The notes under the pieces: model-generated
What the model was told of the DNA's origin: nothing
Databases searched by the model: none
Seen by the model: the letters and a program-made list of their open reading frames with translations, nothing else
Position numbers and translations under genes: made by a program
From: the human T2T-CHM13v2.0 reference genome, Homo sapiens
DNA: 64,000 nt
Reading direction: 5' to 3'
NCBI GenBank assembly: GCA_009914755.4
Contig: CP068257.2
Coordinates: forward strand, 1,120,001-1,184,000
Part shown: positions 9,471-57,300 of the stretch, piece after piece
Numbering within the stretch: position 1 is the stretch's first letter
Layout: each line of letters starts with the position of its first letter

Positions 9471-9479
9471 TGGAATCAA

Positions 9480-33500: not shown

Positions 33501-36500
33501 GAATGGAATGGAATGGAATGGAATGGAGTGGAATGGAACTGAATGGAGTGGAATGGAATAAACACCAGGAGAATGAAATGGATTGGAATGAAATGGAATG
33601 GAATGGAATGGAATGGAATGGAATGGAATGAAATCAACCCGAGTGGAATGGAACGGAATGGAATGGAATGGAAAGGAATGAATGGAAGGGAATGGTGTGG
33701 AAACAACACGAGAGGAATGGAATGGAATGGAATGGAAAGAAACGGAATGGAAAGGAATGGAATGGAATGAACCCGAATGGAATGGAATGGATTGGATTGG
33801 AATGGAATGGAATCAACCCGAGCATAAAGGAATGGAACGGAATGGAGTGGAATGGAATGGAATGGAATGGAATGGAATGGAATGGAATGGAATCAACACG
33901 AATGGAATGGAGCGGAATGAAATGGGATGGGATGGAATGGAATGGAATGGAATCAACATGAATGGAATGGAACGTAATGGAAAGGAATGGAATGGAAAAT
34001 AATGGAATGGAATGAACCCGAATGGAATGGAATGCATTGGAATGGAATGGAATGGAATCAACCCGAGCGGAAAGGAATGGAATGGCATGGTGTGGAATGG
34101 AATGTAATGGAATGGAATGGAATGGAATCAACACGAATGGAATGGAACGGAATGGAATGGGATGGGATGGAATGGAATGGAAGGGAAGTTAATCAACACG
34201 AATGGAATGCAACGGAATGGAATGGAATGGAATGGAGTGGAATGAACCCGAATGGAATGGAATGGATTGGAATGGAATGGAATTGAATCAACCCTAGTGG
34301 AAAGGAATGGAATGGAATGGAGTGGAATGTAATGTAATGTAATGGAATGGAATGGAATGGAATCAACACGAATGGAATAGAACGGAATGGAATGGGATGG
34401 GATGGAATGGAATGGAATGGAAGTTAATCAACATGAATGGAATGGAATGTAATGGAATGGAACGGAACGGAATGGAATGGAATGCAATGGAATGGAATGA
34501 AATGGAAAGGAACGGAATGGAATCAACACGAGTGGAATGGAATGGATAGGAATGGAATCAACCCGAGTGAAATGAAATGGAATGTAATGCAATGGGATGG
34601 AGTGGAATCAACCCGAGTGGAATGGAATGGAATGGAATGGAATGGAACGAAATGGAATGGATCGGAATGTAATCCAATGGAATCAACTGGAATGGAATGG
34701 AATGGAATGGAATGGAATAAACCCGGGTGGAGTGGAATGGAATGTAACGGAGTGGAATGTAATGGAATTTAGTGGAATGGAATGGAATGGAATGGAATGA
34801 AATGGATTGGATCGGAATGGAATCCAAAGGAATCAACTGGAATGGAATGGAATGGAATGGAATAAATCCGGGTGGAGTGGAATGGAAAGTAATGGAGTGG
34901 AATGGAATGGATTTTACTGGATGGAATGGAATGGAATGGAATGCAACGGAATGGAATGGAATGGAATGGAATGGAATGGAAAGGAATGGAATCAACCCGA
35001 ATGGAATGGAACGGAAAGGAATGGAATGGAATGGAATGGAATGGAATGGAATGGAATGGAAAGGAATGGAATGGAATGGAATGGAATCAACCCGAATGGG
35101 ATGGTATGGAATGGAACTGAATGGAATAGAATGGAATGGAATGGAATGGAATGGAATCAACCCAAGTGCAATGGAATGGTTTGGAATGCAATGGAATCCA
35201 CCTGAGTGGAATGGAATGGAATGGAATGGAATGGAATGGAATGGAATGGAGTGGAATGGAACGGAATGGAGTGGAATGCAAGAAACACCAGGGGAATAAA
35301 ATGAATTGGAATGAAATGGAATGGAATGGAATGGAATGGAATGGAATGGAATGAAATCAACCCAAGTGGAATGGAACGGAAAGGAATGGAATGGAAAGGA
35401 ATGAATGGTAAGGAATTGTGTGGAATCAACCCGAGAGGAATGGAATGGAATGGAATGGAATGGAACGGAACGGAATGGAAAGGAATGGAATGGAATGAAC
35501 CCGAATGGAATGGAATGGATTAGAATGGAATGGAATGGAATCAACCCGAGCGGAAAGGAATGGAATGGAATGGAGTGGAATGTAATGTAATGGAATGGAA
35601 TGGAATGGAATGGAATGGAATCAACACAAATGGAATGGAACGGAATGGAATGGGATGGGATGGAATGGTATGGAATGGAAGTTAATCAACACGAATGGAA
35701 TGGAACGGAATGGAATGGAATGGAATGGAAAGGAATGGAATGGAATGGAATGGAATGGAATGGAATGGAATGGAATGGAATGAAATGGAATGGATTGGAA
35801 TGGAATACAATGGAATCAACTGGAATGGAATGGAATGGAATGGAATGGAATGGAATGGAATGAAATGGAATGGATCAGAATGGAATCCAATGGAATCAAC
35901 TGGAATGGAATGGAATGGAATGGACTGCAATTGAATGGAATAAATCTGGGTGCATTGGAATGGAATGTAACGGAGTGGAATGTAATGGAATTTAGTGGAA
36001 TGGAATGGAATGGAATGGAATGGAATGGAATGGAATGGAATGGATTGGATCGGATTGGAATCCAATGGAAGCAACTGGAATGGAATGGAATGGAATGGAA
36101 TTGTATAAATCCGGGTGGAGATGACTGTAATGTAATGCAGGGGAATGGAATGGAATTCAGTGGAATGGAATGGATTGGAATGGATTGGAATGGAATGGAA
36201 TGGAATGGAATGGAATGGAATGGAATGGAATGAAAGGGATAGGATCGGAATGGAATCCAATGGAATCAACTGGAATGGAATGGAATGGAATAAATCCGGG
36301 TGGAGTGGAATGGAATGTAATGGAGTGGAATGGAATGCAATTTAGTGGAATGGAATGGAAAGGAATAGAATGGAATGGAATGGAAAGGAATGGAATGGAA
36401 TCAACCCGAATGGGATGGCATGGAATGGAATTCAATGGAATGGAATGGAATGGACGGTAATGGAATGGAACGGAATGGAATCAACCAAAGTGCAATGGAA

Positions 36501-39500
36501 TGGAATGGAATGCAATGGAATCCACCCAAGTGGAATGGAATGGAATGGAATGGAACGGAATGGAATGGAATGGAGTGGAATGGGACGGAATGGAGTGGAA
36601 TTGAATAAACACCAGGGGTATGAAATGGATTGGAAAGAAATGGAATGGAATGGAATGGAATGAAATCAACCCGAGTGGAATGCAACGGAATGGAATGGAA
36701 TGGAAAGGAATGAATGGAATGGAATGGTGTGGAATCAACACGAGAGGAATGGAATGGAATGGAATGGAATGGAATGGAATGGAACGGAACGGAATGGAAA
36801 GGAATGGAATGGAATGAACCCGAATGGAATGGAATGCATTGGAATGGAATGGAATGGAATCAACCCGAGCGGAAAGGAATGGAATGGAATGGAGTGGAAT
36901 GTAATGTAATGGAATGGAATGGAATGGAATGGAATGGAATCAACACAAATGGAATGGAACGGAATGGAATGGGTTAGGATGGAATGGTATGGAATGGAAG
37001 TTAATCAACACGAAGGGAATGGAACGTAATGGAATGGAATGGAATGGAAAGGAATGGAATGGAATTGAATGGAATGAAATGGAAAGGAACGGAATGGAAT
37101 CAACACGAGTGGAATGGAATGGAACGGAATGGAATCAACCCCACTGGAATGAACTGGAATGTAATGCAATGGGATGGAGTGGAATCAACCCGAGTGGAAT
37201 GGAATGGAATGGAAAGGAATGGAATGGAATGAAATGGAATGGATCGGAATGGAATCCAATGGAATCAACTGGAATGGAATGGAATGGAATGGAATGGAAT
37301 GGAATGCAATGGAATGGAATAAATCTGGGTGGAGTGGAATGGAATGAAACGGAGTGGAATGTAATGGAATTTAGTGGAATGGAATGGAATGGAATGGAAT
37401 GGAATGAAATGGATTGGATCGGAATGGAATCCAATGGAATCAACTGGAAAGAAATGGAATGGAATGGAATGGAATAAATCTGGGTGGAGTGGAATGGAAT
37501 GTAATGGAGTGGAATGGAATGGAATTTAGTGGAATGGAATGGAATAGAATGGAATGGAATGGAATGAAATGGATTGGATCGGAATGGAATCCAATGGAAT
37601 CAACTGGAATGGAATGGAATGGAATAAATCCGGGTGGAGTGGAATGGAACGGAATTTAGTGGAATGGAATGGAAAGGAATGGAATGAAATGGAATGGAAT
37701 GGAATGGAATGGAATCAACCCGAGTGGGATGGCATGCAATGGAATTGAATGGAAGGGAATGGAATGGACTGTAATGGAATGGAATGGAAGGGAATCAAAC
37801 CAAGTGCAATGGAATGGAATGGAATGCAATAGAATCCACCCGAGTGGAATGGAATGGAATGGAATGGAATGGAATGAATGTAATGGAATGGGGTGGAATC
37901 AACACGAGAGGAATGGAATGGAATGGAATGGAAAGGAACGGAATGGAAAGGAATGGAATGGAATGATCCCGAATGGAATGGAATGGATTGGAATGGCATG
38001 GAATGGAATCATCCCGAGCGGAAAGGAACGGAATGGAATGGAGTGGAATGGAATGGAATGGAATGGAATGGAATGGAATGGAATCAACACGAATGGAATG
38101 GAACGGAATGGAATGGAATGGGATGGGATGGAATGGAATGGAAGTTAATCAACACGAATGGAATGGAAAGGAATGGAATGGAATGGAATGGAATGGAATG
38201 GAATGGAATGAACCCGAATGCAATGGAATGGATTGGAATTAAACGGAATGGAATCAACCCGAGCGGAAAGGAATGGAATGGAATGGAATGGAATGGAATG
38301 AAAAGGTTTGGATCGGAATGGAATCCAATGGAATGTAATGGAATGGAATGGAATAAATCCGGGTGGAGTGGAATGGAATGCAATGGAGTGGAATGTAACG
38401 GAATTTAGTGGAATGGAATGGAATGGAATGAAATGGATTCGATCGGAATGGAATCCAATGGAATCAACTGGAATGGAATGGAATGGAATGGAATGGAATA
38501 AATCCGGGTGGAGTGGAATGGAATGTAATGGAGTGGAATGGAATGGAATTTAATGGAATGGAATGGAATGGAATGGAATGGAATGGAATGGAATGAAATG
38601 GATTGGATCAGAATATAATCCAATGGGTTAAACTGGAATGGAATGGAATGGAATGGAATGGAATGGAATGGAATGGAATGCAGTGGATCGGAATGGAATC
38701 AAATGGAATCAACTGGAATGGAATGGAATGGAATGGAATGGAATGGAATAAATCCGGGTGGAGTGGAATGGAATGTAATGGAGTGGAATGTAACGGAATT
38801 TAGTGGAATGGAATGGAATAGAATGCAATGGAATGGAATGAAATGGATTGGATCGGAATGGAATCCAATGGAATCAACTGGAATGCAATGGAATGGAATG
38901 GAATGGAATGGAATGGAATGGAATGGAATAAATCCGGGTGGAGTGGAATGTAATATAATGCAGTGGAATGTAATGGAATTTAGTGGAATGGAATGGAATG
39001 GAATGGAATGGAATGAAATGGGAATGAAATGGATTGGATCGGAATATAATCCAATGGAATAAACTGGAATGGAATGGAATGGAATGAAATAAAATGGATT
39101 GGATTGGAATGGAATCCAATGGAATCAACTGGAATGGAATGGAATGGAATGGAATGGAATACTTCCGGGTGGAGTGGAATGGAATGTAATGGAGTGGAAT
39201 GGAATGGAATTTAGTGGAATGGAATGGAATGGAATGGAATTAAACCGAGTGGAATGGAACGGAATGGAATGGAAAGGAATGGAATGGAATGGAATGGAAT
39301 GGAATGGAATGGAATGGAATCAACCCAAATGGGATGGCATGGAATGGAATTGAATGCAATGCAATGGAATGGAATGGAATGGAATGCAATGGAATCCACC
39401 CGATTGGAATGGAATGGAATGGAATGGAATGGAATGGAATGGAATGGAGTGGAATGGAATAAACAGCAGAGGAATGAAATGGATTGGAATGAAATGGAAT

Positions 39501-42500
39501 GGAATGGAATGGAATGGAATGGAATGAAATCAACCCGAGTGGAATGGAACGGAATGGAATGGAATGGAAAAGAATGAATGGAAGGGAATGGTGTGGAATC
39601 AACACGAGAGGAATGGAATGGAATGGAATGGAACGGAACGGAATGGAAAGGAATGGAATGGAATGAACCCGAATAGAATGGAATGGATTGGAATGGAATG
39701 GAATTGAATCAACCTGAGAGGAAAGGAATGGAATGGAATGGAGAGGAATGGAATGTAATGGATTGGAATGCAATGGAATGGAATCAACACGAATGGAATG
39801 GAACGGAATGGAATGGGATGGGATGGAATGGAATGGAGTGGAAGTTAATCAACACGAATGGAATGGAACGGAATGGAATGGAATGGAATGGAATGGAATG
39901 GAATGAAAGGGAAAGGAACAGAATGGAATCAACAGGAGTGGAATGGAATGGAACAGAATGGAATCAACCCGAGTGGAATGAAATGGAATGTAATGCAATG
40001 AGATGGAGTGGAATCAACCCGAGTGGAATGGAATCGAATGGATTGGAATGGAATGGAATGGAATGAAATGGAATGGATCGGAATGGAATCCAATGGAATC
40101 ACCTGGAATGGAATGGAATGGAATGGAATGGAATGGAATGGAATGGAATGGAATGGAATAAATCCGGGTGGAGTGGAATGGAATGTAATGGAGTGCAATG
40201 TTACGGAATTTAGTGGAATGGAATGGAATGGAATGGAATGGAATGGAATGGAATGGAATGGAATCTAATGGAATGAAATGGATTGGATCGGAATGGAATC
40301 CAATGGAATCAACTGGAATGGAATGGAATGGAATAAATCCGGTTGGAGTGGAATGGAATGTAATGGAGTGGAATGGAATGGAATTTAGTGTAATGGAATG
40401 GAATGGAATGGAATGGAATGGAATGGAATGGAATGGAATGGAATGAAATGGAATGGAATCAACCCGAATGGAATGGAACGGAATGGAATGGAAAGGAATG
40501 GAATGGAATGGAATGGAATGGAATAGAATGGAATGGAATGGAATGGAATGGAATCAACCCAAGTGCAATGGAATGCAATAGAATGCAATGGAATCCACCC
40601 GAGTGGAATGGAATGGAATGGAATGGAATATAATGCAATGGAATAGAATGGAATGGAATGGAATGGAATGGAATGGAGTGGAATGGAACTGAATGGAGTG
40701 GAATGGAATAAACACCAGGAGAATGAAATGGATTGGAATGAAATGGAATGGAATGGAATGGAATGGAATGAAATCAACCCGAGTGGAATGGAACGGAATG
40801 GAATGGAATGGAAAGGAATGAATGGAAGGGAATGGTTTGGAAACAACACGAGAGGAATGGAATGGAATGGAATGGAAAGGAACAGAATGGAAAGGAATGG
40901 AATGGAATGAACCCGAATGGAATGGAATGGATTGGAATGGAATGGAATGGAATCGACCCGAGCATAAAGGAATGGAACGGAATGGAGTGGAATGGAATGG
41001 AATGGAATGGAATGGAATGGAATGGAATGGAATGGAATCAACACGAATGGAATGGAGCGGAATGAAATGGGATGGGATGGAATGGAATGGAATGGAATGG
41101 AATGGAATGGAATGGAATCAACATGAATGGAATGGAACGTAATGGAATGGAATGGAATGGAAAATAATGGAATGGAATGAACCCGAATGGAATGGAATGG
41201 ATTGGAATGGAATGGAATGGAATGGAATCAACCCGAGCGGAAAGGAATGGAATGGCATGGAGTGGAATGGAATGTAATGTAATGGAATGGAATGGAATGG
41301 AATCAACACGAATGGAATGGAACGGAATGGAATGGGATGGGATGTAATGGAATGGAATGGAAGTTAATCAACACGAATGGAATGCAACGGAATGGAATGG
41401 AATGGAATGGAGTGGAATGAACCCGAATGGAATGGAATGGATTGGAATGGAATGGAATTGAATCAACCCTAATGGAAAGGAATGGAATGGAATGGAGTGG
41501 AATGTAATGTAATGTAATGTAATGGAATGGAATGGAATGGAATCAACACGAATGGAATGGAACGGAATGGAATGGGATGGGATGGAATGGAATGGAATGG
41601 AAGTTAATCAACATGAATGGAATGGAATGTAATGGAATGGAACGGAACGGAATGGAATGGAATGGAATGGAATGGAATGAAATGGAAAGGAACGGAATGG
41701 AATCAACATGAGTGGAATGGAATGGATAGGAATGGAATCAACCCGAGTGGAATGAAATGGAATGTAATGCAATGGGATGGAGTGGAATCAACCCGAGTGG
41801 AATGGAATGGAATGGAATGGAACGAAATGGAATGGATCGGAATGTAATCCAATGGAATCAACTGGAATGGAATGGAATGGAATGGAATGGAATAAACCCG
41901 GGTGGAGTGGAATGGAATGTAACGGAGTGGAATGTAATGGAATTTAGTGGAATGGAATGGAATGGAATGGAATGAAATGGATTGGATCGGAATGGAATCC
42001 AATGGAATCAACTGGAATGGAATGGAATGGAATGGAATAAATCCGGGTGGAGTGGAATGGAATGTAATGGAGTGGAATGGAATGGATTTTACTGGAATGG
42101 AATGGAATGGAATGGAATGCAATGGAATGGAATGGAATGGAATGGAATGGAATGGAATGGAATGGAATCAACCCGAATGGAATGGAACGGAAAGGAATGG
42201 AAAGGAATGGAATGGAATGGAATGGAATGGAATGGAATGGAATGGTATAAATCCAGGTGGAGTTGACTGTAATGTAATGCCGTGGAATGGAATGGAATTC
42301 AGTGGAATGGAATGGATTGGAATGGATTGGAATGTAATGTAATGGAATGGAATGGAATGGAATGGAATGGAATGGAATGAAAGGGATAGGATCGGAATGG
42401 AATCCAATGGAATCAACTGGAATGGAATGGAATTGAATAAATCCGGGTGGAGTGGAATGGAATGTAGTGGAGTGGAATGGAATGGAATTTAGTGGAATGG

Positions 42501-43190
42501 AATGGAAAGGAATGGAATGGAATGGAATGGAATGGAATGGAATGGAATGGAATGGAATCAGCCCGAATGGGATGGCATGGAATGGAATTCAATGGAATGG
42601 AATGGAATGGAATCAACCCAAGTGCAATGGAATGGAATGGAATGCAATGGAATCCACCCAAGTGGAATGGAATGGAATGGAATGGAACGGAATGGAATGG
42701 AATGGAGTGGAATGGGACGGAATGGAGTGGAATTGAATAAACACAAGGGGAATGAAATGGATTGGAAAGAAATGGAATGGAATGGAATGGAATGAAATCA
42801 ACCCGAGTGGAATGTAACGGAATGGAATGGAATGGAAAGGAATGAATGTAATGGAATGGGGTGGAATCAACACGAGAGGAATGGAATGGAATGGAACGGA
42901 ATGGAATGGAATAAATCCGGGTGGAGTGCAATGGAATGTAATGGAGTGGAATGGAAAGGAATTTAGTGGAATGGAATGGAATGGAATGGAATGGAATGGA
43001 ACGGAATCAACCTGAATGGGTTGGCATGGAATGGAATGGAATGGAGTGGAATGTAATGTAATGTAATGGAATGGAATGGAATGGAATCAACACGAATGGA
43101 ATGGAACGGAATGGAATGGGATGGGATGGAATGGAATGTAATGGAAGTTAATCAAGACGAATGGAATGCAACGGAATGGAATGGAACGGA
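21594..43190. repeat. HOR copy 2 of the ~21.6-kb HSat3 unit, apparently >=99% identical to copy 1 in aligned blocks.
   Basis: Translations are identical over hundreds of codons. Offsets between copies change only in 5-bp steps: 21,593 -> 21,553 -> 21,568 -> 21,578 -> 21,583 -> 21,598 -> 21,588 -> 21,593 -> 21,603. Confidence 0.9.
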
Positions 43191-43435
43191 ATGGAATGGA
43201 ATGGAATGAACCCGAATGGAATGGAATGGATTGGAATGGAATGGAATGGAATCAACCCGAGCGGAAAGGAATGGAATGGAATGGAGTGGAATGTAATGTA
43301 ATGGAATAGAATTGAATGGAATGGAATCAACAGGAATGGTATGGAACGGAATGGAATGGGATGAGATGGAATGGATGTTAATCAACACGAATGGAATGGA
43401 ACGGAATGGAATGGAATGGAATGGAATGGAATGGA
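43191..43435. repeat. First ~245 bp of a third HOR period (matches 21,594-21,835), followed by loss of the 21.6-kb periodicity.
   Basis: 43,141-43,435 matches 21,541-21,835 nearly base for base, including 'caacaggaatggtatggaacg[c/g]aatggaatgggatgagatggaatggatgttaatcaaca[t/c]gaatgg'. After ~43,435 copy 1 continues '...ggaaaggaatggaatggagtggaatggaacggaatggagtggaatggaataaacaccagggg', while here the sequence reads '...gaatgaaatggaatggatcggaatggaatacaatggaatcaactgg'. Confidence 0.8.
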
Positions 43436-46400
43436 ATGGAATGGAATGAAATGGAATGGATCGGAATGGAATACAATGGAATCAACTGGAATGTAATGTA
43501 ATGGAATGGAATGGAAAGGAATAAATCCGGGTGGAGTGGAATGGAATGTAACGGAGTGGAATGTAAAGGAATTTAGAGGAATGGAATGGAATGGAATGGA
43601 ATGGAATGAAATGGGTTGGATAGGAATGGAATTCAATGGAATCAACTGGAATAGAATGGAATGGAATAGAATGGAATAAATCCGGGTGGAGTGGAATGGA
43701 ATGTAATGGAGTGGAATGGAATGGAATTTAGTGGAATGGAAAGTAATGTACTGGAATATAATGGAATGGAATGGAATCAACCCGAGTGGAAAGGAACGGA
43801 ATGGAATGGAAAGGAATGGAATGGAATGGAATGGAATGGAATGGAATGGAATGGAATCAACCCGAATGGAATGGAACGGAAAGGAATGGAAAGGAATGGA
43901 ATGGAATGGAATGGAATGGAATGGAATGGAATGGAAAGGAATGGAATGGAATGGAATGCAATCAACCCGAATGGGATGGCATGGAATGGAACTGAATGGA
44001 ATAGAATGGAATGGAATGGAATGGAATGGAATGGAATCAACCCAAGTGCAATGGAATGGAATGGAATGCAATGGAATCCACCTGAGTGGAATGGAATGGA
44101 ATGGAATGGAATGGAATGGAATGGAGTGGAATGGAACGGAATGGAGTGGAATGCAAGAAACACCAGGGGAATAAAATGGATTGGAATGAAATGGAATGGA
44201 ATGGAATGGAATGGAATAAAATCAACCCAAGTGGAATGGAACGGAATGGAATGGAATGGAAAGGAATGAATGGTATGGAATGGTGTGGAATCAACACGAG
44301 AGGAATGGAATGGAATGGAATGGAACGGAACGGAATGGAAAGGAATGGAATGGAATGAACCCTAATGGATTGGAATGGATTGGAATGGAATGGAATGGAA
44401 TCAACCCGAGCGGAAAGGAATGGAATGGAATGGAGTGGAATGTAATGGAATGGAATGGAATGGAATGGAATGGAATCAACACAAATGGAATGGTACGGAA
44501 TGGAATGGGATGGGATGGAATGGTATGGAATGGAAGTTAATCAACAAGAATGGAATGGAACGGAATGGAATGGAATGGAATGGAAACGAATGCAATGCAA
44601 TGGAATGCAATGGAATGGAATGGAATGGAATGGAATGAAATGGAATGGAATGGAATGGAATCAAAACGAATGGAATGGACTGCAATTGAATGGAATAAAT
44701 CTGGGTGCATTGGAATGGAATGTAACGGAGTGGAATGTAATGGAATTCAGTGGAATGGCATGGAATGGAATGGAATGGAATGGAATGGAATGGATTGGAT
44801 CGGATTGGAATCCAATGGAAGCAACTGGAATGGAATGGAATGGAATGGAATGGTATAAATCCGGGTGGAGTAGACTGTAATGTAATGGAGTGGAATGGAG
44901 TGGAATTCAGTGGAATGGAATAGATTGGAATGGATTGGAATATAATGGAATGGAATGGAATGGAATGGAATGCAATGAAAGGGATTGGATCGGAATGGAA
45001 TCCAATGGAATCAACTGGAATGGAATGGAATGGAATACATCCGGGTGGAGTGGAATGGAATGTAATGGAGTGGAATGGAATGGAATTTAGTGGAATGGAA
45101 TGGAATGGAATGGAATGGAATGGAACGGAATGGAATGGAATGGAATCAACCCGAGTGGAATGGAATGGATTGGAATGGAAAGGAATGGAATTGAATGGAA
45201 TGCAATGGAATGGAATCAACCCGAATGGGATGGCATGGAATGGAAAGGAATGGAATGGAATGGAATGGAATGGAATGGAATCAAAACGAATGGAATGGAA
45301 CGGAATGGAATGGGATGGGATGGAATGGAATGGAATGGAAGTAAATCAACACTAATGGAATGGAACGGAATGGAATGGAATGGAATGGAATGAACCCGAA
45401 TAGAATGGAATGGATTCGAATGGAATGGAATTGAATCAACCCGAGCGGAAAGGAATGGAATGGAATGTAGTGGAATGGAATGTAATGGAATGGAATGGAA
45501 CGGAATGGAATCAACACGAGTGGAATGGAATGGAACGGAATGGAATCAACCCGAGTGGAATGAAATGGAACGTAATGCAATGGGATGGAGTGGAATCAAC
45601 CTGAGTGGAATGGAATGGAATGGCATGGAATGGAACGGAATGAAAGGGAATGAAATGGAATGGATCGGAATAGAATCCAATGGAATCACCTGGAATGGAA
45701 TGGAATGGAATGGAATGGAATGGACTCGAATGCAATGGAATGGAATAAATCCGGGTGGAGTGGAAAGGAATATAATGGAGTGGAATGTAATGGAATTTAG
45801 AGGAATGGAATGGAATGGAATGGAATGGAATGGAAAGTAATGGAATGAAATTGATTGGATAGGAATGGAATCCAATGGAATCAACTGGAATGGAATCAAT
45901 GGAATGGAATGGAATAAATCCGGGTGGAGTGGAATGGAATGTAATGGAGTGGAATGGAATGGAATTTAGTGGAATGGAATGGAATGGAATGGAATGGAAT
46001 GAAATGGAATGGAATCATCCCGAGTGGAATGGAATGGAATGGAATGGAAAGGAATGGAATGGAATGGAATGGAATGGAATGGAATGGAATCAACCCCAGT
46101 GGAATGGAACAGAATGGAATGGAAATGAATAGAATGGAATTGAATTGAATGGAATGGAATGGAATCAACCCGAATGGGATGGCATGGAATGGAATGGAAT
46201 GGAATGGAATGGATTGGAAAGGAATGGAATGTAGTCAACCCAAGTGCAATGGAATGGAATGGAATGCAATGGAATCCACACGAGTGGAATGGAATGGAAT
46301 AGAATGGAATGGAATGGAATGGAATGGAATGGAATGGAATAAATCCGGGTGGAGTGGAATGAAATGTAATGGAGTGGAATGGAATGGAATTTAGGGGAAT

Positions 46401-46899
46401 GGAACAGAATGGAATGGAATGGAATGGAATGGAATGGAATGGAATGGATTGGAATGAAATGGATTGGATCGGAATGGAATCCAATGGAATCAACTGGAAT
46501 GGAATGGAATGGAATGGAATGCAATAAATCCGGGTGGAGTGGAATGGAATGTAATGGAGTGGAATGGAATGGAATTTAGTGGAATAGAATGGAATGGAAT
46601 GGAAAGAAATGGATTGGATCGGAATGGAAGCCAATGGAATCAACTGGAATGGAATGGAATGGAATGGAATGGAATGGAATGGAATGGAATGGAATAAATC
46701 CGGGTGGAGTGGAATGGAAAGTAATGGAGTGGAATGTAATGGAATTTAGTGGAATGGAATTGAATGGAATGGAATGGAATGGAATGGAATCAAACCGAAT
46801 GGATTGGAACGGAATGGAATGGAATGGAATGGAATGGAATCAACACGAATGGGATGGCATGGAATGGAATTGAGTGAAATGGAATGGAATGGAATGGAA

Positions 46900-49800
46900 T
46901 GGAATGGAATGGAATGGAATGGAATGGAATCAACCCGAATGGGATGGAATGTAATGGAATGGAATGGAATGGTATGGAATGGAATGGAATCATCCCAAGT
47001 GCAATGGAATGGAATGGAATGCAATGGAGCCACCCGAGTGGAATGGAATGGAATGGAGTAGAATGGAACGGAATGGAGTGGAATGGAATAAACACCAGGG
47101 GAATGAAATGGATTGGAATGAAATGGAATGGAATGGAATGAAATCAACCTGAGTGGAATGGAACGGAATGGAATGGAATGGAAAGGAATGAATGGAAGGG
47201 AATGGTGTGGAATCAACACGAGAGGAATGGAATGGAATGGAATGGAACGGAACGGAATGGAAAGGAATGGAATGGAATGAACCCGAATGGAATGGAATGG
47301 ATTGGAATGGAATGGAATTGAATCACCCCGAGCGGAAAGGAATGGAATGGAATGGAGTGGAATGGAATGAAATGGAAAGGAACAGAATGGAATCAACACG
47401 AGTGGAATGGAATGGAACGGAATGGAAACAACCCGAGTGGAATGAAATGGAATATAATTCAAAGGGATGGACTGGAATCAACCCGAGTGGAATGGAATGG
47501 AATGGAATGGAATGAAATGGAATGGATCGGAATGGAATCCAATGGAATCAACTGGAATGGAATGGAATGGAATGGAATGGAATGGAATAAATCCGGGTGG
47601 AGTGGAATGGAATGCAATGGAGTGGAATGTAATGGAAATTAGTGGAATGGAATGGAATGGAATGGAATGGAATGGAAAGAAATGGATTGGATAGGAATGG
47701 AACCCAATGGAATCAACTGGAATTGAATGGAATGGAGTAAATCCGGGTGGAGTGGAATGGAATGTAATGCAATGGAATGGAATGGAATTTAGTGGAATGG
47801 AATGGAATGGAATGGAAAGGAATGGAATGGAATGGATTGGAATCAACCCGAGTGGAGTGGAACGGAATGCAATGGAAAGGAAAGGAATGGAATGGAATGG
47901 AATGGAATGGAATGGAATGGAATGGAATCAACCCGAATGGGATGGAATGTAATGGAATGGAATGGAATGGAATGGAATGGAATGGAATGGTATGCAATGG
48001 AATGGAATCATCCCAAGTGCAATGGAATGGAATGGAATGCAATGGAGCCACCCGAGTGGAATGGAATGGAATGGAATGGAATGGAATGGAATGGAATGGA
48101 CTGGAATGGAACGGAATGGAGTGGAATGGAATAAACACCAGGGGAATGAAATGGATTGGAATGAAATGGAATGGAATGGAATGGAATGGAATGAAATCAA
48201 CCCGAGTGGAATGGAAGGGAATGGAATAGAATGGAAAGGAATGAATGGAAGGGAATGGTGTGGAATCAACACGAGAGGAATGGAATGGAATGGAATGGAA
48301 CAGAAAGGAATGGAAAGGAATGGAATGCAATGAACCCGAATGGAATGGAATGGATTGGAATGGAATGGAATTGAATCACCCCGAGCGGAAAGGAATGGAA
48401 TGGCATGGAGTGGAATGGAATGGAATGGAATGTAATGGAATGGAATGGAATGGAATGGAATCAACACGAATGGAATGGACCGGAATGGAATGCGATGGGA
48501 TGGAATGGAATGGAATGGAAGTTAATCAACACGAATGGAATGGAACGGAATGGAATGGAATGGAATGGAATGGAATGAACCCGAATGGAATGGAATGGAT
48601 TGGAATGGAATGGAATGGAATCAACCCGAGCGGAAAGGAATGGAATGGAATGGAGTGGAATGGAATGAAATGGAATGGAATGGAATGGAATGTAAACAAC
48701 ACGAATGGAATGGAATGGAATGGAATGGAATGGAATGGAATGGAATGGGATGGAATGGAATGGAATGCAAGTTAATCAACATGAATGGAATGGAACGGAA
48801 TGGAATGGAATGGAATGGAATGGAAAGGAATGAATGGATGGGAATGGTGTGGAATCAACACGAGAGTAATGGAATCGAATGGAATGGAACGGAACGGAAT
48901 GGAAAGGAATGGAAAGGAATGAACCCGAATGGAATGGAATGGATTGGAATGGAATGGAATTGAATCAACCCGAGCGGAAAGGAATGGAATGGAATGGAGT
49001 GGAATGGAATGGAATGGAATGGAATGGAATGGAATCAACACGAATGGAAAGGAACGGAATGGAATGGGATGGGATAGAATGGAATGGAATGGAAGTTAAT
49101 CAACACGAATGGAATGGAACGGAATGGAATGAAATGGAATGGAATGAAATGGAAAGGAACAGAATGGAATCAACACGAGTGGAATGGAATGGAACGGAAT
49201 GGAATCAACCCGAGTGGAATGAAATGGAATGTAATTCAAAGGGATGGAGTGGAATCAACCCGAGTGGAATGGAATGGAATGGAATGGAATGAAATGGAAT
49301 GGATCGGAATGGAATCCAATGGAATCAACTGGAATGGAATGGAATGGAATGGAATGGAATGGGATAAATCCGGGTGGAGTGGAATGGAATGCAATGGAGT
49401 GGAATGTAATGGAATTTAGTGGAATGGAATGGAATGGAATGGAATGGAATGGAATGGAATGGAATGGAATGAAATGGATTGGATAGGAATGGAACCCAAT
49501 GGAATCAACTGGAATTGAATGGAATGGAATAAATCCGGGTGGAGTGGAATGGAATGTAATGGAGTGGAGTGGAATGGAATTTAGTGGAATGGAATGGAAT
49601 GGAATGGAATGGAATGGAATCAACCCGAGTGGAATGGAACGGAATGCAATGGAAAGGAATGGAATGGGATGGAATGGAATGTAATCAACCCGAATGGGAT
49701 GGCATGTAACGGAATGGAATGGAATGGAATGGAATGGTATGGAATGGAATGGAATCATCCCAAGTGCAATGGAATGGAAAGGAATGCAATGGAGCCACCC

Positions 49801-51300
49801 GAGTGGAATGGAATGGAATGGAGTGGAATGGAATGGAGTGGAATGTAACGGAATGGATTGGAATGGAATAAACACCAGGGGAATGAAATGGATTGGAATG
49901 AAATGGAATGGAATGGAATGGAATGGAATGAAATCAACCCGAGTGGAATGGAACGGAATGGAATGGAATGGAAAGGAATGAATGGAAGGGAATGGTGTGG
50001 AATCAACACGAGAGTAATGGAATGGAATGGAATGGAACGGAACGGAATGGAAAGGAATGGAAAGGAATGAACCCGAATGGAATGCAATGGATTGGAATGG
50101 AATGGAATTGAATCAACCGGAGCGGAAAGGAATGGAATGGAATGGAGTGTAATGTAATGTAATGTAATGTAATGTAATGTAATGTAATGGAATCAACACG
50201 AATGGAATGGAACGGAATGGAATGGGATGGGATGGAATGGAATGGAATGGAAGTTAATCAACACGAATGGAATGGAACGGAATGGAATGGAACGGAATGG
50301 AATGGAATGAACCCGAATGGAATGGAATGGATTGGAATGGAATGGAATGGAATCAACCCGAGCGGAAAGGAATGGAATGAAATGGAGTGGAATGGAATGG
50401 AATGGAATGGAATGGAATGGAAACAACACGAATGGAATGGAACGGAATGGAATGGGATGGGATGGAATGGAATGGAATGCAAGTAAATCAACACGAATGG
50501 AATGGAACAGAATGGAATGGAATGGAATGAAATGCAAAGGAAAGGAATGGAATCCACACGAGTGGAATGGAATGGAACGGAATGGAAACAAACCAGAGTG
50601 GAATGAAATGGAATGTAATGCAATGGGATGGAGTGGAATCAACCCGAGTGGAATAGAATGGAGTGGAACGGAATGAAATGAAATGGATCGGATTGGAATC
50701 CAGTGGAGTCAACTGGAATGGAATGGAATGGAATGTAATCGAATGGAATGGAATGGAGTGGAATGGAATGGAATAAATCCGGGTTGAGTGGAATGGAATG
50801 AAATGGAGTGGAATGTAATGGAATTTAGTGGAATGGAATGGAATGGAATGGAATGGAATGGAATGGAATGGAATCAACCCGAGTGGAATGCAACGGAATG
50901 CAACGGAAAGGAATGGAATGGAATGGAATGGAATGGAATGGAATGGAATGGAATGGATTGGAATGGAACGGAATGCAGTGGAATGGAATAAACACCAGGG
51001 GAATGAAATGGATTGGAATGAAATGGAATGGAATGGAATGGAATGGAATGAAATCAACCCGAGTGGAATGGAACGGAATGGAATGGAATGGAAAGGAATG
51101 AATGGAAGGGAATGGTGTGGAATCAACACGAGAGTAATGGAATGGAAAGGAATGGAACTGAACGGAATGGAAAGGAATGGAAAGGAATGAACCCGAATGG
51201 AATGCAATGGATTGGAATGGAATGGAATTGAATCAACCCGAGCGGAAAGGAATGGAATGGAATGGAGTGGAATGTAATGTAATGTAATGTAATGTAATGT
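46900..51300. repeat. Local tandem array of ~4 variable-length (1.0-1.8 kb) HSat3 sub-units inside the diverged flank.
   Basis: Marker 'gagccacccgagtggaatgg' (EPPEWNG) occurs at ~47,025, 48,045 and 49,790. The block '...INTRGMKWIGMKWNGMEWNGMKSTRVEWNGMEWNGKE' ends at 47,141, 48,229, 49,981 and 51,101. Marker 'aat(a/g)taattcaaagggatgg' occurs at 47,455 and 49,240. - ORFs 47478..47846 and 49255..49875 are near-identical. Confidence 0.65.
50149..50188. repeat. (GTAAT)8 variant-pentamer micro-expansion. A paralogous (GTAAT)6 lies at 51,274-51,303, and (GTAAT)5 at 10,633-10,657 and 32,228-32,252.
   Basis: Counted directly from 'gtaatgtaatgtaatgtaatgtaatgtaatgtaatgtaatgg'. The two flank copies sit ~1,125 bp apart at equivalent positions of adjacent local sub-units. 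Confidence 0.85.
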
Positions 51301-54300
51301 AATGGAATGGAATGGAATGGAATGGAATCAACACGAATGGAATGGAACGGAATGGAATGGGATGGGATGGAATGGAATGGAATGGAATGGAAGTTAATCA
51401 ACACGAATGGAATGGAACGGAATGGAATGAAATGGAATGGAATGGAATGAACCCGAATGGAATGGAATGGATTGGAATGGAATGGAATGGAATCAACCCG
51501 AGCGGAAAGGAATGGAATGGAATGGAGTGGAACGGAATGGAATGGAATGGAATGCAAGTTAATCAACACGAATGGAATGGAACGGAATGGAATAGAATGG
51601 AATGTAATGGAATGAAATGGAAAGGAACGGAATGGAATCAACACGAGTGGAATGGAATGGAACGGAATGGAATCAACAAGAGTGGAATGAAATGGAATGT
51701 AATGCAATGGGATGGAGTGGAATCAACACGAGTGGAATAGAATGGAATGGAACGGAATGAAATGGAATGGATCGGATTGGAATCCAGTGGAGTCAACTGG
51801 AATGGAATGGAATGGAATGGAATGGAATGGAATGGAAAGGAATGGAATGGAATAAATCCGGGTGGAGTGGAATGGAAAGTAATGGAGTGGAATGGAATGG
51901 AATTTAGTGGAATGGAATGGAATGGAATGGAATGGAGTCAACACGAGTGGATTGGAACAGAATGGAATGGAAAGGAATGGAATGGAATGGAATGGAATCA
52001 ACCTGAATGGGATGGCATGGAATGGAATTGAATGGAATTGAATGGAATGGAATGGAATGGAATGGAATCAACCCAAGTGCAATGGAATGGAATAGAATGC
52101 AATGGAATCCACTCGAGTGGAATGGAATGGAATGGAATGGAGTCGAATGGAACGGAATGTAGTGGAATGGAGTAAACACCAGGGGAATGAAATGGATTGG
52201 AATGAAATGATATGGAATGGAATGGAATGGAATGAAATCAACCCGAATGGAATGGAACGGAATGGAATGGAATGGAATGGAAAGGAATGAATGGAACGGA
52301 ATGGTGTGGAATCAACACGAGAGGAATGGAATTGAATGGAATGGAATGGAACGGAATGGAAAGGAATGGAAAGGAATGAACCCGAATGGAATGGAATGGA
52401 ATGGAATGGAATGGAATGGAATGGAATGGAATGGAATGGAATGGAATCAACCCGAGCGGAAAGGAATGGATTGGAATGGAGTGGAATGGAATCTAATGTA
52501 ATGTAATGGAATGGAATGGAATCAACACAAATGGAATGGAACGGAATGGAATGGGATGGGATGGAATGGAATGGAATGGAATTTAATCAACACGAATGGA
52601 ATGGAACGGAATGAAATGGAACGGAATGGAATGGAAAGGAATGGCATGGAATGGAATGGAATGAAATGGAAACAAGCGGCATGGAATCAACACGACTGGA
52701 ATGGAATGGAATGTAATGCAATGGGATTGAGTGGAATCAACCAGTGTGGAATGGAATGGAATGGAATGGAATGGAATGGAATGAAATGGAATGGATCGGA
52801 ATGTAATCCAATGGAATCAACTGGAATGTAATCTAATGGAATGGAATCGAATGGAATGAAATGGAATGTATCGGAATGTAATCCAATGGAATCAACTGTA
52901 ATGTAATGTAATGTAATGGAATGGAATGGAATAAACCCGGGTGGAGTGGAATGGAATGTAATGGAGTGGAATGTAATGGAAGTTATTGGAATGGAATGGA
53001 ATGGAATGGAATAGACTGGATCAGAATGGAATCCAATGGAATCAACTGGAATGGAATGGAACGGAATGGAATGGAATAAATCCGGGTGGAGTAGAATGGA
53101 ATGTAATGGAGTGGAATGGAATGGAATTTAGTGGAATGGAATGGAATGGAATGGAATGGAATGGAATGGAATAAATCCGGGTGGAGTGGAATGGAATGTA
53201 ATGGAATGGAAAGGAATGGAATTTAGTGGAATGGAATGGAATGGAATTTAATGGAATGGAATGGAATCAATCCGAGGGCATGGAACGGAATGGAATGGAA
53301 AGGAATGTAACGTAATGGAATGGAATGGAATGGAATGGAATGGAATGGAATCAACCCGAATGGGATGGCATGGAATGGAATTGAATGGAATAGAATGGAA
53401 TGGAATGGAACGGAATGGAGTCAACCCAAGTGCAATGGAATGGAATGGAGTGCAATGGAAAAGAATGGAATGCAATGGAATCCACCCGAGTGGAATGGAA
53501 TGGAATGGAATGGAATGGAATGGAATGGAATGGAATGGAATGGAAAGGAATGGAGTGGAATGGAACGGAATGGAATATAATGGAATCAACACGAATGGAA
53601 TGGAACGGAATGGAATGGAATGGAATGGAATGGAATGGAATGGAATGAACCCGAATGGAATGTAATGGAATGGAATGGAATAGAATGGAATCAACGTGAG
53701 CGGAAAGGAATGGAATGGAATTGAGTGGAATGGAATGGAATGGAATGGAATGGAATGGAATCAACACGAATGGAATGGAACGGAATGGAATGGGATGGGA
53801 TGGAATGGAATGGAATGGAAGTTAATCAACACGAATGGAATGGAACGGAATGGAATGGAATGGAATGGAATGGAATGAAATGGAAAGGAAAAGAATGGAA
53901 TCAACACGAGTGGAATGGAATGGAACGGAATGTAATCAACCCGAGTGGAATGAAATGGAATGTAATTCAAAGGGATGGAGTGGAATCAACCCGAGTGGAA
54001 TGGAATGGAATGGAATGGAATGGAATGGAATGGAATCAAACCAAGTGCAATGGAATGGAATGGAATGCAATGGAATCCACCCGAGTGGAATGGAATGGAA
54101 TGGAACGGAATGGAATGGATTGGAATGGAATGGAATGGAATGGAATGGAATGGAATGAAATAAACCCGAGTGGAATGCAACGGAATGGAATGGAATGGAA
54201 AGTAATGAATGTAATGGAATGAGGTGGAATCAACATCAGAGGAATGGAATGGAACGGAATGGAACAGAATGGAATGGAAAGGAATGGAATGGAATGAACC

Positions 54301-57300
54301 CGAATGGAATGGAATGGAATGGAATGGAATAGAATGGAATCAACCCGAGCGGAAAGGAATGTAATGGAATGGAGTGGAATGTAATGTAATGTAAAGGAAT
54401 GGAATGAAATAGAATCAACACGAATGGAATGGAACGCAATGGAATGGGATGGGATGGAATGGAATGGAATGGAAGTTAATCAACACGAACGGAATGGAAC
54501 GGAATGGAATGGAATGGAGTGGAAAGGAACGGAATGGAGTGGAATGCAATAAACACCAGGGGAATGAAATGGATTAGAATGAAATGGAATGGAATGGAAT
54601 GGAATCAACCCGAATGGGATGGCATGGAACGGAATTGAATGGAACGGAATGGAATGGACTGTAATGGAAAGGAATGGAATGGAATCAAACCAAGTGCAAT
54701 GGAATGGAATGGAATGCAATGGAATCCACCCGAGTGGAATGGAATGGAATGGAATGGAATGGAATGGAATGGAATGGAATGGAATGGAAGGGAGTGGAAT
54801 GGAACGGAATGGAGTGGAATGCAATAAACACCAGGGGAATGAAATGGATAGGAAAGAAATGGAATTGGAATGGAATGGAATGGAATGAAATCAACCCGAG
54901 TGAAATGCAAAGGAATGGAATGGAATGGAAAGGAATGAATGTAATGGAATGAGGTGGAATCAACACGAGAGGAATGGAATGGAATGGAATGGAAAGGAAC
55001 GGAATGGAAAGGAATGGAATGGAATGATCCCGAATGGAATGGAATGGATTGGAATGGAATGGAATGGAATCAACCCGAGCGGAAAGGAATGGAAAGGAAT
55101 GGAATGGAATGGAATGGAATGGAATGGAATGGATTGGAATTGAATGGAATGGAATCAACCCGAGCGGAAAGGAATGGAATGGAATGGAACGGAATGAAAA
55201 GGATTGGAGCGGAATGGAATCCAATGGAATAAACTGGAATGGAATGGAATAGAATGGAATGAAACAAATCCGGGTGGAGTGGAATGGAATGTAATGGAGT
55301 GGAATGTAACGGAATTTAGTGGAATGGAATGGAATGGAATGGAATGGAATGGAATGAAATGGATTTGATCGGAATGCAATCCAATGGAATCAACTGGAAA
55401 GGAATGGAATGGAATGGAATGGAATAAATACGGGTGGAGTGGAATGGAATGTAATGGAGTGGAATGGAATGGAATTTAGTGGAATGGAATGGAATGGAAT
55501 GGAATGGAATGGAATGGAACGAAATGGATTGGATCGGAATATAATCCAATGGAATAAACTGGAATGGAATGGAATGGAATGGAATGGAATGAAATGCAGT
55601 GGATTGGAATGGAATCAAATGGAATCAACTGGAATGGAATGGAATGGAATGGAATGGAATAAATCCGGGTGGAGTGGAATGGAATGTAATGCAGTGGAAT
55701 GTAACGGAATTTAGTGGAATGGAATGGAAAGGAATGGAATGGAATGGAATGGAATGGAATGGAATGAAATGGATTCGATCGGAATGGAATCCAATGGAAT
55801 CAACTGGAATGGAATGGAATGCAATGGAATGGAATGGAATAAATCCGGGTGGAGTGGAATGGAATGTAACGGAGTGGAATGGAATGGAATTTAGTGGAAT
55901 GGAATGGAATGGAATGGATTGGAATGGAATTAACCCGAGTGGAATGGAACGGAATGGAATGGAAAGGAATGGAATGGAATGGAATGGAATGGAATGGAAT
56001 GGAATGGAATCAACCTGAATGGGATGGCATGGAATGGTATTGAATGCAATGGAATGGAATGGAATGGAATGGAATGGAATCAAACCAATTGCAATGGAAT
56101 GGAATGGAATGCAATGGAATCCACTCGATTGGAATGGAATGGAATGGAATGGAATGGAATGGAATGGAATGGAATGGAGTGGAATGGAATAAACACCAGA
56201 GGAATGAAATGGATTGGAATGAAATGGAATGGAATGGAATGGAATGAAATCAACCCGAGTGGAATGGAACGGAATGGAATGGAATGGAAAGGAATGAATG
56301 GAATGGAATTGTGGGGAATCAACACGAGAGTAATGGAATGGAATGGAACAGAATGGAAAGAATGGAATGGAATGAACCCGAATGGAATGGAATGGATTGG
56401 AATGGAATGGAATGGAATCAACCTGAGAGGAAAGGAATGGAATGGAATGGAGAGGAATGGAATGTAATGGAATGAAATGGAAAGGAATGGAATCAACACG
56501 AATGGAATGGAACGGAATGGAATGGGATGGGATGGAATGGAATGGAATGGAAGTTAATCAACACGAATGGAATGGAATGGAATGGAATGGAATGGAATGG
56601 AATGAAATGGAAAGGAACAGAATGGAATCAACACGAGTGGAATGGAATGGAACGGAATGGAATCAACCCGAGTGGAATGAAATGGAATGTAATGCAATGG
56701 GATGGAGTGGAATCAACCCGAGTGGAATGGAATCGAATGGAATGGAATGGAACGGAATGGAAAGAAATGGAATGTATCGGAATGGAATCCAATGGAATCA
56801 ACTGGAATGGAATGGAATGGAATGGAATGGAATGGAATGGAATGGAATAAATCCGGGTGGAGTGGAATGGAATGTAATGGAGTGCAATATTACGGAATTT
56901 AGTGGAATGGAATGGAATGGAATGGAATGGAATGGAATCGAATGGAATGAAATGGAATGGATCGGAATGGAATCCAAAGGAAACAACTGGAGTGGAATGG
57001 AATGGAATGGAATGGAATGGAATGGAATAAAACCGGGTGGAGTGGAATGGAATGTAATGGAGTGGAATGGAATGGAATTTAGTTTAATGGAATGGAATGG
57101 AATGGAATGGAATGGAATGGAATGGAATGAAATGGAATGGAATCAACCCGAATGGAATGGAACGGAATGGAATGGAAAGGAATGGAATGGAATGGAATGG
57201 AATGGAATAGAATGGAATGGAATGGAATTGAATGGAATGGAATGGAATCAACCAAATTGCAATGGAATGCAATGGAATGCAACGGAATCCACCCGAGTTG

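What the first reader, a model, noticed from the sequence alone, without database searches (positions are those of the whole stretch)
43300..43600. Sharp edge of the homogenised HOR domain at ~43,435
The third period starts faithfully (43,191-43,435 = 21,594-21,835) and then departs completely from the unit. Downstream sequence is still HSat3 in the same orientation but does not follow the unit's order of blocks.

This could be any of three things:
- the physical edge of the young HOR array abutting older HSat3;
- a large deletion or rearrangement within the array;
- an assembly collapse or misjoin, which is common in satellites.

The exact breakpoint lies inside a GGAAT run, so it is cleanly pinned only to within ~20 bp.
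Basis: seen in the sequence. Interest (0 to 1): 0.5.

Follow-up and report, generated by a model that had tools for sequence, protein, structure and literature searches.

The report
End of a two-copy satellite duplication
The "sharp edge" is real, but it is the far end of a single recent 21.6-kb tandem duplication (two copies, not a repeat array) inside otherwise uniform human-type satellite 3 DNA, which is an ordinary way for satellites to grow.

Summary
21,594-21,835 matches 43,197-43,438 with 2 mismatches. Similarity then drops from about 99.5% to below 90% inside a perfect (GGAAT)n run at 43,403-43,448.

The "third period of an HOR array" reading does not hold. It comes from taking window base 1 as the unit start. 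The window shows only two copies: U (246-21,799) and U' (21,839-43,402). They differ by 20 isolated substitutions (9.3e-4 per site) and 27 indels, all multiples of 5 bp.

The left flank L (1-207) is not homologous to the end of U. All three boundaries lie in perfect (GGAAT)7-9 runs: 208-245, 21,800-21,838 and 43,403-43,448. The middle run has the left context of the third run and the right context of the first. That is the signature of one tandem duplication made by unequal exchange between two short pentamer runs 21.6 kb apart.

The junction created by the event is at about 21,800-21,838.

The downstream flank R belongs to the same subfamily, with HSat3B4 marker density equal in L+U, U' and R. 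It is no older by the identity measure used. R matches no part of U above about 90-95%, which excludes an internal deletion.

An assembly artefact cannot be excluded without reads, but the internal evidence argues against it. This is an ordinary feature of low interest.

The parts
1..207 (+). L: left flank of the duplication, HSat3B4 fabric that was not duplicated
   Evidence: The best non-self match of 1-207 is 88.8%, and the unit end 21,594-21,800 is not among the top hits. Global identity to the unit end is 73.6%, the same as random-pair background of 74%. Bases 1-122 match 21,574-21,695 at 96.7%, but this is a common ~122-bp block with 34 copies in the window and the two share no private variants. 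Bases 123-207 are unrelated to 21,696-21,800.
208..245 (+). Parental left boundary: perfect period-5 (GGAAT)n run of 38 bp
   Evidence: The sequence to its right (GGAAAGGAATGGAATGGAGTGG...) is identical to the sequence to the right of the 21,800-21,838 run. The sequence to its left differs.
246..21799 (+). U: copy 1 of the duplicated segment (21,554 bp)
   Evidence: It aligns end to end with 21,839-43,402. The differences are 20 isolated substitutions, one small complex patch and 27 indels, all multiples of 5 bp.
21800..21838 (+). Recombinant junction made by the duplication: perfect (GGAAT)n run of 39 bp joining the U end to the U' start
   Evidence: Its left context (...TTAATCAACATGAATGGAATGGAAC) equals the left context of the 43,403 run. 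Its right context equals the right context of the 208 run.
21839..43402 (+). U': copy 2 of the duplicated segment (21,564 bp)
43403..43448 (+). This is ancestral contiguity, not a new junction.
   Evidence: Paralogy with copy 1 ends within this run, and dense mismatches begin at 43,449.
43449..64000 (+). R: right flank, HSat3B4 fabric of the same kind, not duplicated and not colinear with U
   Evidence: Its first 400 bp match nothing in the window above 89.7%. Best 500-bp tile matches are 84.6-95.6%, mean 90.0%, and fall at scattered positions. It holds 21 copies of the HSat3B4 marker 24-mer, against 20 in L+U and 20 in U'.

Best explanation
The edge at 43,403-43,448 is the distal end of a single two-copy tandem duplication of a ~21.6-kb piece of HSat3 (subfamily B4) satellite. 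The arrangement is L (1-207), run, U (246-21,799), run, U' (21,839-43,402), run, R (43,449-64,000).

The inferred event is as follows. The ancestral sequence was L-(GGAAT)n-U-(GGAAT)m-R. The two perfect pentamer runs, 21.6 kb apart, paired out of register. This could have happened between sister chromatids or homologues, or by template switching during replication or break repair. Exchange within the runs then produced L-run-U-hybrid run-U'-run-R.

The only junction created by the event is the hybrid run at 21,800-21,838.

The anatomy is shown directly. The exchange mechanism is inferred. So is the age, roughly 0.5-2 million years if the genome-average human substitution rate of about 0.5e-9 per site per year (my own knowledge) applies.

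Since the duplication, the copies have diverged mainly by pentamer slippage in long pure runs (27 indels) and by 20 point substitutions, 7 of them CpG transitions.
For: (a) There are two copies only. Self-BLAST and k-mer offsets show one diagonal at ~21.6 kb spanning 208-21,852 against 21,801-43,455, and no structure at 43.2 kb.

(b) The alignment length is 21,633 bp (208-21,840), which equals the period of 21,593 bp plus the ~40-bp run. A simple tandem duplication with junction homology predicts exactly this.

(c) The junction is chimeric. The 21,800 run shares its left context with the 43,403 run and its right context with the 208 run.

(d) Both outer flanks are non-homologous at the recent level. 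L has a best match of 88.8% and R of 89.7%, while the adjacent unit ends match their paralogues at 99.5-99.75%. L shares no private variants with the unit end.

(e) The homology that mediated the event is only the run. The sequences flanking the two parental runs are 71-75% alike, the same as random pairs at 74%. Runs of 38 bp or more cover 10% of the window, so both parental breakpoints falling in such runs has a probability of about 0.01 if breakpoints were random.

(f) The copies are distinct sequences. They carry 20 isolated substitutions (9.3e-4 per site) and 27 indels that are all multiples of 5 bp, almost all in long pure runs. This is real divergence, not a doubled assembly path.

(g) The fabric is the same on both sides. 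The HSat3B4 marker 24-mer occurs 20, 20 and 21 times in L+U, U' and R, and the other 13 subfamily markers occur 0 times (markers from PMC4022460 Table 1). Best non-paralogue identity is 91.3% for U tiles and 90.0% for R tiles.
Against: Only 207 bases of left flank are visible, so the two-copy claim rests on a short stretch. It is also an odd coincidence that the window starts just upstream of the left boundary.

No independent sequence of this locus could be found. Neither the junction nor the copy number has been confirmed outside this assembly.

Divergence between the copies is not uniform. Substitutions are enriched near the unit ends (p about 0.002-0.008), and a central ~5 kb has no indels (p about 0.03). 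History after the duplication, such as gene conversion, was therefore not a simple clock, and the age is uncertain.
Confidence: 0.8

Rival explanations
1. This is the true edge of a multi-copy 21.6-kb HOR or nested-tandem-repeat array that continues to the left beyond the window. The reader's view then holds: copy 1 is not the first copy, and the edge is where a long homogenised array abuts flanking HSat3.
For: Window bases 1-122 resemble 21,574-21,695 at 96.7%. The window starts only ~207 bp before the apparent left boundary. Multi-kb units are known in HSat2,3 arrays (10.1101/2021.07.12.452052).
Against: The 96.7% match is background for a common block. 48,547-48,667 in the flank R matches equally well, and there are no shared private variants. 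Bases 123-207 are unrelated to 21,696-21,800. L as a whole is 73.6% identical to the unit end, which is random-pair level. Homology switches on exactly at the run that corresponds to the junction run. The two-copy model predicts this; under an array model it would be a coincidence.
Confidence: 0.07
2. This is an assembly artefact. Either it is a false tandem duplication (for example two haplotypes or two paralogous loci stitched in series), or it is a collapse or misjoin, so the true genome has a different copy number or a different neighbour at 43.4 kb.
For: Satellites are hard to assemble. No external copy of the locus could be found to confirm any of the three boundaries.
Against: The copies differ at about 48 sites, roughly one per 450 bp, so long accurate reads could separate them. 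All indels are multiples of 5 bp and lie in pure runs, as biological slippage would give, not the pattern of sequencing errors. The three boundaries form the exact reciprocal pattern of one unequal exchange. A ~39-bp run is too short to create a false overlap in a long-read assembler (inference).
Confidence: 0.1
3. This is a large deletion or other rearrangement inside a homogeneous array, with the sequence after 43,448 being a distant part of the same array brought next to the unit.
For: The departure from unit order is abrupt.
Against: If R were array sequence, it would match some part of U at ~99.9%. Its first 400 bp match nothing above 89.7%. Its best 500-bp tiles reach 84.6-95.6% at scattered, non-colinear positions. 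No second high-identity diagonal exists.
Confidence: 0.02

Closest known systems
Nested tandem repeats (NTRs) of HSat2,3 and their 'hyper-local' expansion (Altemose et al., Complete genomic and epigenetic maps of human centromeres, 10.1101/2021.07.12.452052)
   Same: A multi-kb unit built from diverged (GGAAT)n is repeated head to tail within an HSat3 array. The expansion is local, and periodicity differs along the array.
   Different: Only two copies are present here, so there is no array periodicity. The 21.6-kb unit is much longer than the classical 1.8-3.6-kb units cited in PMC4022460. At most this is the first step towards an NTR.
Simple tandem segmental duplication by unequal exchange or template switching at short direct repeats (own knowledge of unequal sister-chromatid exchange, NAHR and MMBIR/FoSTeS)
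   Same: There are two adjacent direct copies. The junction is a chimera of the two parental boundary sequences. A stretch of perfect identity sits at all three boundaries. The outer boundaries are ancestral contiguities.
   Different: The mediating identity is 38-46 bp with no extended homology beyond it. That is shorter than usually invoked for NAHR and longer than typical MMBIR microhomology. The tools cannot tell which enzymatic route was used.
Alpha-satellite HOR array edges and layered expansion (homogeneous HOR core flanked by older divergent layers)
   Same: There is a sharp drop in identity between repeats at a boundary.
   Different: There are no discrete monomers and no multi-copy array. 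The flank is not a more divergent or older layer by the measures used: it has the same subfamily marker density and the same best-paralogue identity.
HSat3 subfamily B4 (Altemose et al. 2014, PMC4022460; reported mainly on chromosomes 13, 14, 21, 22)
   Same: The commonest B4-specific 24-mer occurs 61 times in the window, about 1 per kb, and none of the other 13 subfamily markers occurs.
   Different: Only one marker per subfamily was available, and the full k-mer classification was not run. The source species and chromosome are not known to me.

Membership tests
Human satellite 3 (HSat3) | Diverged (GGAAT)n/(CATTC)n pentamer repeat in long single-orientation arrays | tested here: met
   There are 200-234 GGAAT per 2 kb across all 64 kb, and ATTCC occurs once. 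The least satellite-like 100-bp tiles are still pentamer variants, and no foreign insert was found.
HSat3 subfamily B4 | Presence of subfamily-specific 24-mers (Altemose 2014 Table 1) and absence of the markers of other subfamilies | tested here: met
   TTCCATTCCACTCCACCCGGATTT occurs 61 times on the - strand, evenly spread over L+U, U' and R. All 13 other markers occur 0 times. Only the single commonest marker per subfamily was tested.
HOR / nested tandem repeat array | Three or more head-to-tail copies of the unit, each copy preceded by the end of another copy | tested here: not met
   Only one ~21.6-kb diagonal exists, with length equal to the period plus 40 bp. The sequence before copy 1 (1-207) is not a unit end. 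Sequence upstream of the window is not visible.
HOR / nested tandem repeat array | Flanks belong to a different or more diverged layer than the homogenised core | tested here: not met
   Best non-paralogue identity is 91.3% for U tiles and 90.0% for R tiles. Marker density is equal. Both U and R show similar loose 150-250-bp and 1-1.4-kb sub-periodicities.
Simple tandem duplication | Two adjacent direct copies, with paralogy length equal to the period plus the junction homology | tested here: met
   208-21,840 against 21,801-43,435 gives 21,633 bp, for a period of 21,593 bp and a run of 38-46 bp.
Simple tandem duplication | The middle junction is a chimera of the right parental boundary (left side) and the left parental boundary (right side), and the outer flanks are unrelated to each other | tested here: met
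   Searches show the contexts. L against the unit end is 73.6% and the unit start against R is 71-75%, both equal to background.
Classical NAHR | Extended high-identity homology (hundreds of bp) flanking the crossover | tested here: not met
   Perfect identity is limited to the 38-46-bp runs. The flanks are at random-pair identity. The event works like an unequal exchange, but on short homology.
Assembly misjoin or collapse | Anomalous read depth, clipped reads or no spanning reads at the boundaries | not testable with these tools
   No reads or other assemblies are available. Public collections searched here do not contain the locus.

The most novel reading that the evidence does not exclude
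The duplication may be a nascent nested tandem repeat caught at its two-copy stage in an otherwise aperiodic HSat3B4 array. It may be polymorphic among human haplotypes or acrocentric chromosomes, and the two copies may still be exchanging sequence. The hints for exchange are substitutions enriched at the unit ends and a central ~5 kb free of indels. If so, it would give a dated natural system for measuring pentamer-slippage, substitution and gene-conversion rates inside satellite DNA. It would also be a structural marker for tracking exchange between acrocentric short arms.
Probability: 0.15. Interest if true: 0.35.

Novelty: new member of a known kind. Interest (0 to 1): 0.15.

Why it matters
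The practical value is mostly corrective. This window should not be recorded as holding a 21.6-kb HOR array with an edge, and 43.4 kb is not a rearrangement breakpoint.

It is a clean, fully bounded example of how HSat3 grows: one unequal exchange between two ~40-bp perfect pentamer runs. Both parental boundaries and the recombinant junction are preserved. The count of changes since the event is internally calibrated at 27 pentamer-slippage indels against 20 substitutions.

Specialists already expect local duplications of this kind in satellites, so it opens no new question.

Tried and rejected
(1) I looked for independent copies of the locus and found none.
- The unit-end block was scanned by exact pattern in metagenome contigs twice and genome contigs once, with 0 matches.
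- The R-side junction block was scanned in genome contigs, with 0 matches.
- Five exact-product look-ups of ORFs spanning or adjoining the boundaries all returned 'not on record'.
- One protein search used the 137-aa ORF that spans the recombinant junction. It returned 521 HSat-like ORFs, mostly on short contigs, with identity of 75% or less. The locus is therefore absent from that database, and I made no further searches of that kind.

(2) The repeat finder on the whole window reported thousands of 300-nt 'copies' at 60-80% identity. It is uninformative for a satellite.

(3) My first tile BLAST with short words timed out. I repeated it with longer words.

(4) I tested whether 1-122 is a true unit end. 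I rejected this after comparing all 34 copies of that block.

(5) I tested whether mutagenic repair near the new junction explains the edge-enriched substitutions. Polarising with in-window paralogues gave 8 junction-proximal against 5 junction-distal derived changes, which is no asymmetry.

(6) I searched the supplement of the T2T centromere paper for B4-specific periodicities and found nothing useful.

(7) ORFs on both strands are by-products of the pentamer (GMEWN and IPFHS repeats). I did not treat them as genes.

Full report
**What is in the window.** All 64 kb is (GGAAT)n-derived satellite in a single orientation. There are 200-234 GGAAT per 2 kb on the + strand, and ATTCC occurs once. 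The least satellite-like 100-bp tiles are still pentamer variants, so there is no foreign insert. Table 1 of Altemose et al. 2014 (PMC4022460) lists the commonest subfamily-specific 24-mer for each of 14 HSat2,3 subfamilies. Only the HSat3B4 marker occurs here. It appears 61 times, about once per kb: 20 times before 21,800, 20 times in 21,800-43,447 and 21 times after 43,448. That paper places B4 mainly on chromosomes 13, 14, 21 and 22. The species and chromosome of this window are not known to me.

**The observation.**
- Exact 40-mers shared within the window pile up at offsets of 21,553-21,608.
- 30-mers at that offset are dense for first positions up to ~21,840 and then stop.
- Self-BLAST gives 208-2,714 = 21,801-24,302 and 2,578-21,852 = 24,131-43,455, at 98.4% and 98.9% counting gap columns. 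The next best pair in the window is 94-95% over 2.1 kb.
Both sequences then run through a pure pentamer tract and come out different.
- The perfect period-5 tract spans 43,403-43,448, and dense mismatches start at 43,449.
- The 400 bp before the edge match their paralogue at 99.5% and nothing else above 91.8%. The 400 bp after it match nothing above 89.7%.

**The left end changes the interpretation.** Aligning 1-300 with 21,594-21,893 shows that homology does not run to base 1. Bases 123-207 are unrelated to 21,696-21,800, although 21,696-21,800 is 98.3% identical to 43,299-43,403. Bases 1-122 match 21,574-21,695 at 96.7%, but they match 48,547-48,667 in the downstream flank equally well. The block is a common ~122-bp motif with 34 copies in the window. 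In an alignment of all 34, bases 1-122 carry three private variants, while the 21,574 and 43,177 copies sit close to the consensus with one private variant of their own. The only state they share is also found in many other copies. As a whole, 1-207 has no non-self match above 88.8%, and the unit end is not among its top hits. Its global identity to the unit end is 73.6%, and random 200-bp pairs from the window average 74%. So the high-identity repeat begins at about 208. It has exactly two copies in the window.

**Anatomy.** Three perfect period-5 runs mark the boundaries: 208-245 (38 bp), 21,800-21,838 (39 bp) and 43,403-43,448 (46 bp).
- The sequence left of the 21,800 run (...GATGTTAATCAACATGAATGGAATGGAAC) is the sequence left of the 43,403 run.
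- The sequence right of the 21,800 run (GGAAAGGAATGGAATGGAGTGGAATGGAACGG...) is the sequence right of the 208 run.
- The paralogy length is 21,633 bp (208-21,840), which equals the period of 21,593 bp plus the run.

This is the arrangement L | U | U' | R expected from one tandem duplication with junction homology. Two consequences follow. And the sequence across 43,403-43,448 is the ancestral join of the unit end to R, while the junction made by the event is the middle run at 21,800-21,838.

**How the copies differ.** A full pairwise alignment shows these differences between 246-21,799 and 21,839-43,402:
- 20 isolated substitutions, or 9.3e-4 per site. Seven are CpG transitions.
- One small complex patch at 2,678-2,694, with a 40-bp indel nearby.
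- 27 indels, every one a multiple of 5 bp. Nearly all lie in perfect runs of about 30 bp or more.

These are distinct sequences that diverged mainly by pentamer slippage. At a genome-average human rate of about 0.5e-9 substitutions per site per year (my own knowledge), 9.3e-4 gives about 0.9 million years. The edge-only divergence (next paragraph) would give about 2 million years. Satellite rates and gene conversion make both figures rough.

**Heterogeneity of divergence (side result).** Thirteen of the 20 substitutions lie within 3.1 kb of a unit end (chi-square p = 0.002, KS p = 0.008). The central 11.66-16.6 kb has 34 consecutive runs of 25 bp or more without an indel (p about 0.03), and 12,320-15,319 shows no difference at all (max-gap p about 0.04). 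I polarised the substitutions with other in-window paralogues as outgroups. This gave 12 changes derived in U and 7 in U'. Eight were junction-proximal and five junction-distal, so there is no sign of mutagenesis focused on the new junction. Interior homogenisation by gene conversion between the copies would fit, but the numbers are small and the tests were chosen after seeing the data.

**Mechanism.** The sequences flanking the two parental runs are no more alike than random pairs from the window, at 71-75% against 74%. The event was therefore mediated only by the ~40-bp perfect pentamer tracts. Runs of 38 bp or more cover 10% of the window (142 runs). Two random breakpoints would both fall in such runs about 1% of the time, which supports a homology-guided event. 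Unequal sister-chromatid or homologue exchange, break-induced replication and template switching all give this product. The sequence cannot distinguish them. Extended homology of the classical NAHR kind is absent.

**The flank is not an older layer.** Setting aside the U/U' paralogue, 500-bp tiles of U and U' find their best other match at a mean of 91.3% (84.6-98.0%). Tiles of R find theirs at a mean of 90.0% (84.6-95.6%), at scattered, non-colinear positions. Both parts show the same loose 150-250-bp and ~1-1.4-kb block spacings and no regular long period. The duplicated segment was simply a piece of this fabric.

**Assembly artefact.** I could not test this directly. The public DNA collections contain no match to the unit-end block or to the R-side junction block. 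Five boundary ORFs are not on record. A protein search with the junction-spanning ORF found only generic HSat-like ORFs at 75% identity or less. Several points argue against an artefact:
- The copies differ about once per 450 bp.
- The indels have the biological 5-bp pattern.
- The three boundaries form the exact reciprocal pattern of one exchange.
- A 39-bp run is too short to seed a false long-read overlap (inference).

Collapse of additional copies remains possible.

**Comparison with what is known.** Altemose et al. (10.1101/2021.07.12.452052) call multi-kb HSat2,3 units nested tandem repeats. [quoted passage not shown] The present structure is the simplest such local event, a single duplication. 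It fails the defining test of an array, which needs three or more copies, each preceded by another copy. HSat3B4 is hardly discussed in the searchable literature: three papers mention it. This particular duplication is not described in anything I could find, but its kind is well known.

**Verdict.** The feature is the end of a young two-copy tandem duplication within uniform HSat3B4 satellite. It is not the edge of an HOR array, not a deletion, and probably not a misjoin. It is of low interest: a new instance of a known process.

Noticed in passing
window 246-21,799 vs 21,839-43,402: Differences between the two copies are not evenly spread. Thirteen of 20 substitutions lie within 3.1 kb of a unit end (p about 0.002-0.008). 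The central 11.66-16.6 kb has no indel in 34 consecutive pentamer runs (p about 0.03). This might reflect gene conversion between the copies after the duplication. Polarisation showed no excess of derived changes next to the new junction.
   Followed up: partly
window ~10,950-13,476 vs ~18,000-20,652 (and the same in copy 2: ~32,540-35,069 vs ~39,560-42,245): An older repeat lies inside the unit at an offset of 7.05-7.13 kb, with 94-98% identity over ~2.1-2.6 kb. A second repeat, ~9,000-10,000 vs ~15,160-16,100, lies at an offset of ~6.1 kb with 93-96% identity. Together they look like the eroded remains of an earlier 6-7-kb tandem duplication. The clearest boundaries of the first repeat again fall in pure (GGAAT)n runs: 13,425-13,468 and 20,611-20,652 on the right, 18,496-18,556 on the left.
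   Followed up: partly
window 2,538-2,694 vs 24,131-24,247: This is the only non-slippage structural difference between the copies. Copy 1 has an extra 40 bp containing a TTAATCAACACG block. About 140 bp downstream, copy 2 has a repeated TTAACCCGAGCGGAAAGG block where copy 1 has plain pentamers. It was seen as a cluster of 9 'substitutions' in the first alignment.
   Followed up: partly
whole window: Indels outnumber point substitutions between the copies, 27 to 20. All indels are multiples of 5 bp, and nearly all lie in perfect runs of about 30 bp or more. This gives an internal estimate that pentamer slippage is at least as frequent per 21.6 kb as base substitution.
   Followed up: partly
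window 1-122 and 33 other sites (e.g. 12,620; 21,574; 48,546; 59,341): A ~122-bp block (…GAACCCGAATGG…CAACCCGAGCGGAAAGG…GGAGTGGAATGTAATG) recurs 34 times with 9 or fewer mismatches, in both the duplicated part and the flank. It is a sub-repeat of this HSat3B4 fabric and can mimic long-range homology over short stretches.
   Followed up: yes
window 50,150-50,190: A short (GTAAT)n/(AATGT)n variant run of about 8 units interrupts the GGAAT pattern. It is one of the least GGAAT-like 100-bp tiles of the window.
   Followed up: no
protein database hits P0001-P0120: Hundreds of ORFs resembling translated HSat pentamer repeats (MEWNG-type) are on record. Most are single-member clusters on contigs under 1.5 kb from NCBI and ENA sources. 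A few sit on long contigs, such as P0054 on a 178,650-bp contig. They look like satellite or contaminant DNA called as genes, but I did not examine their sources.
   Followed up: no
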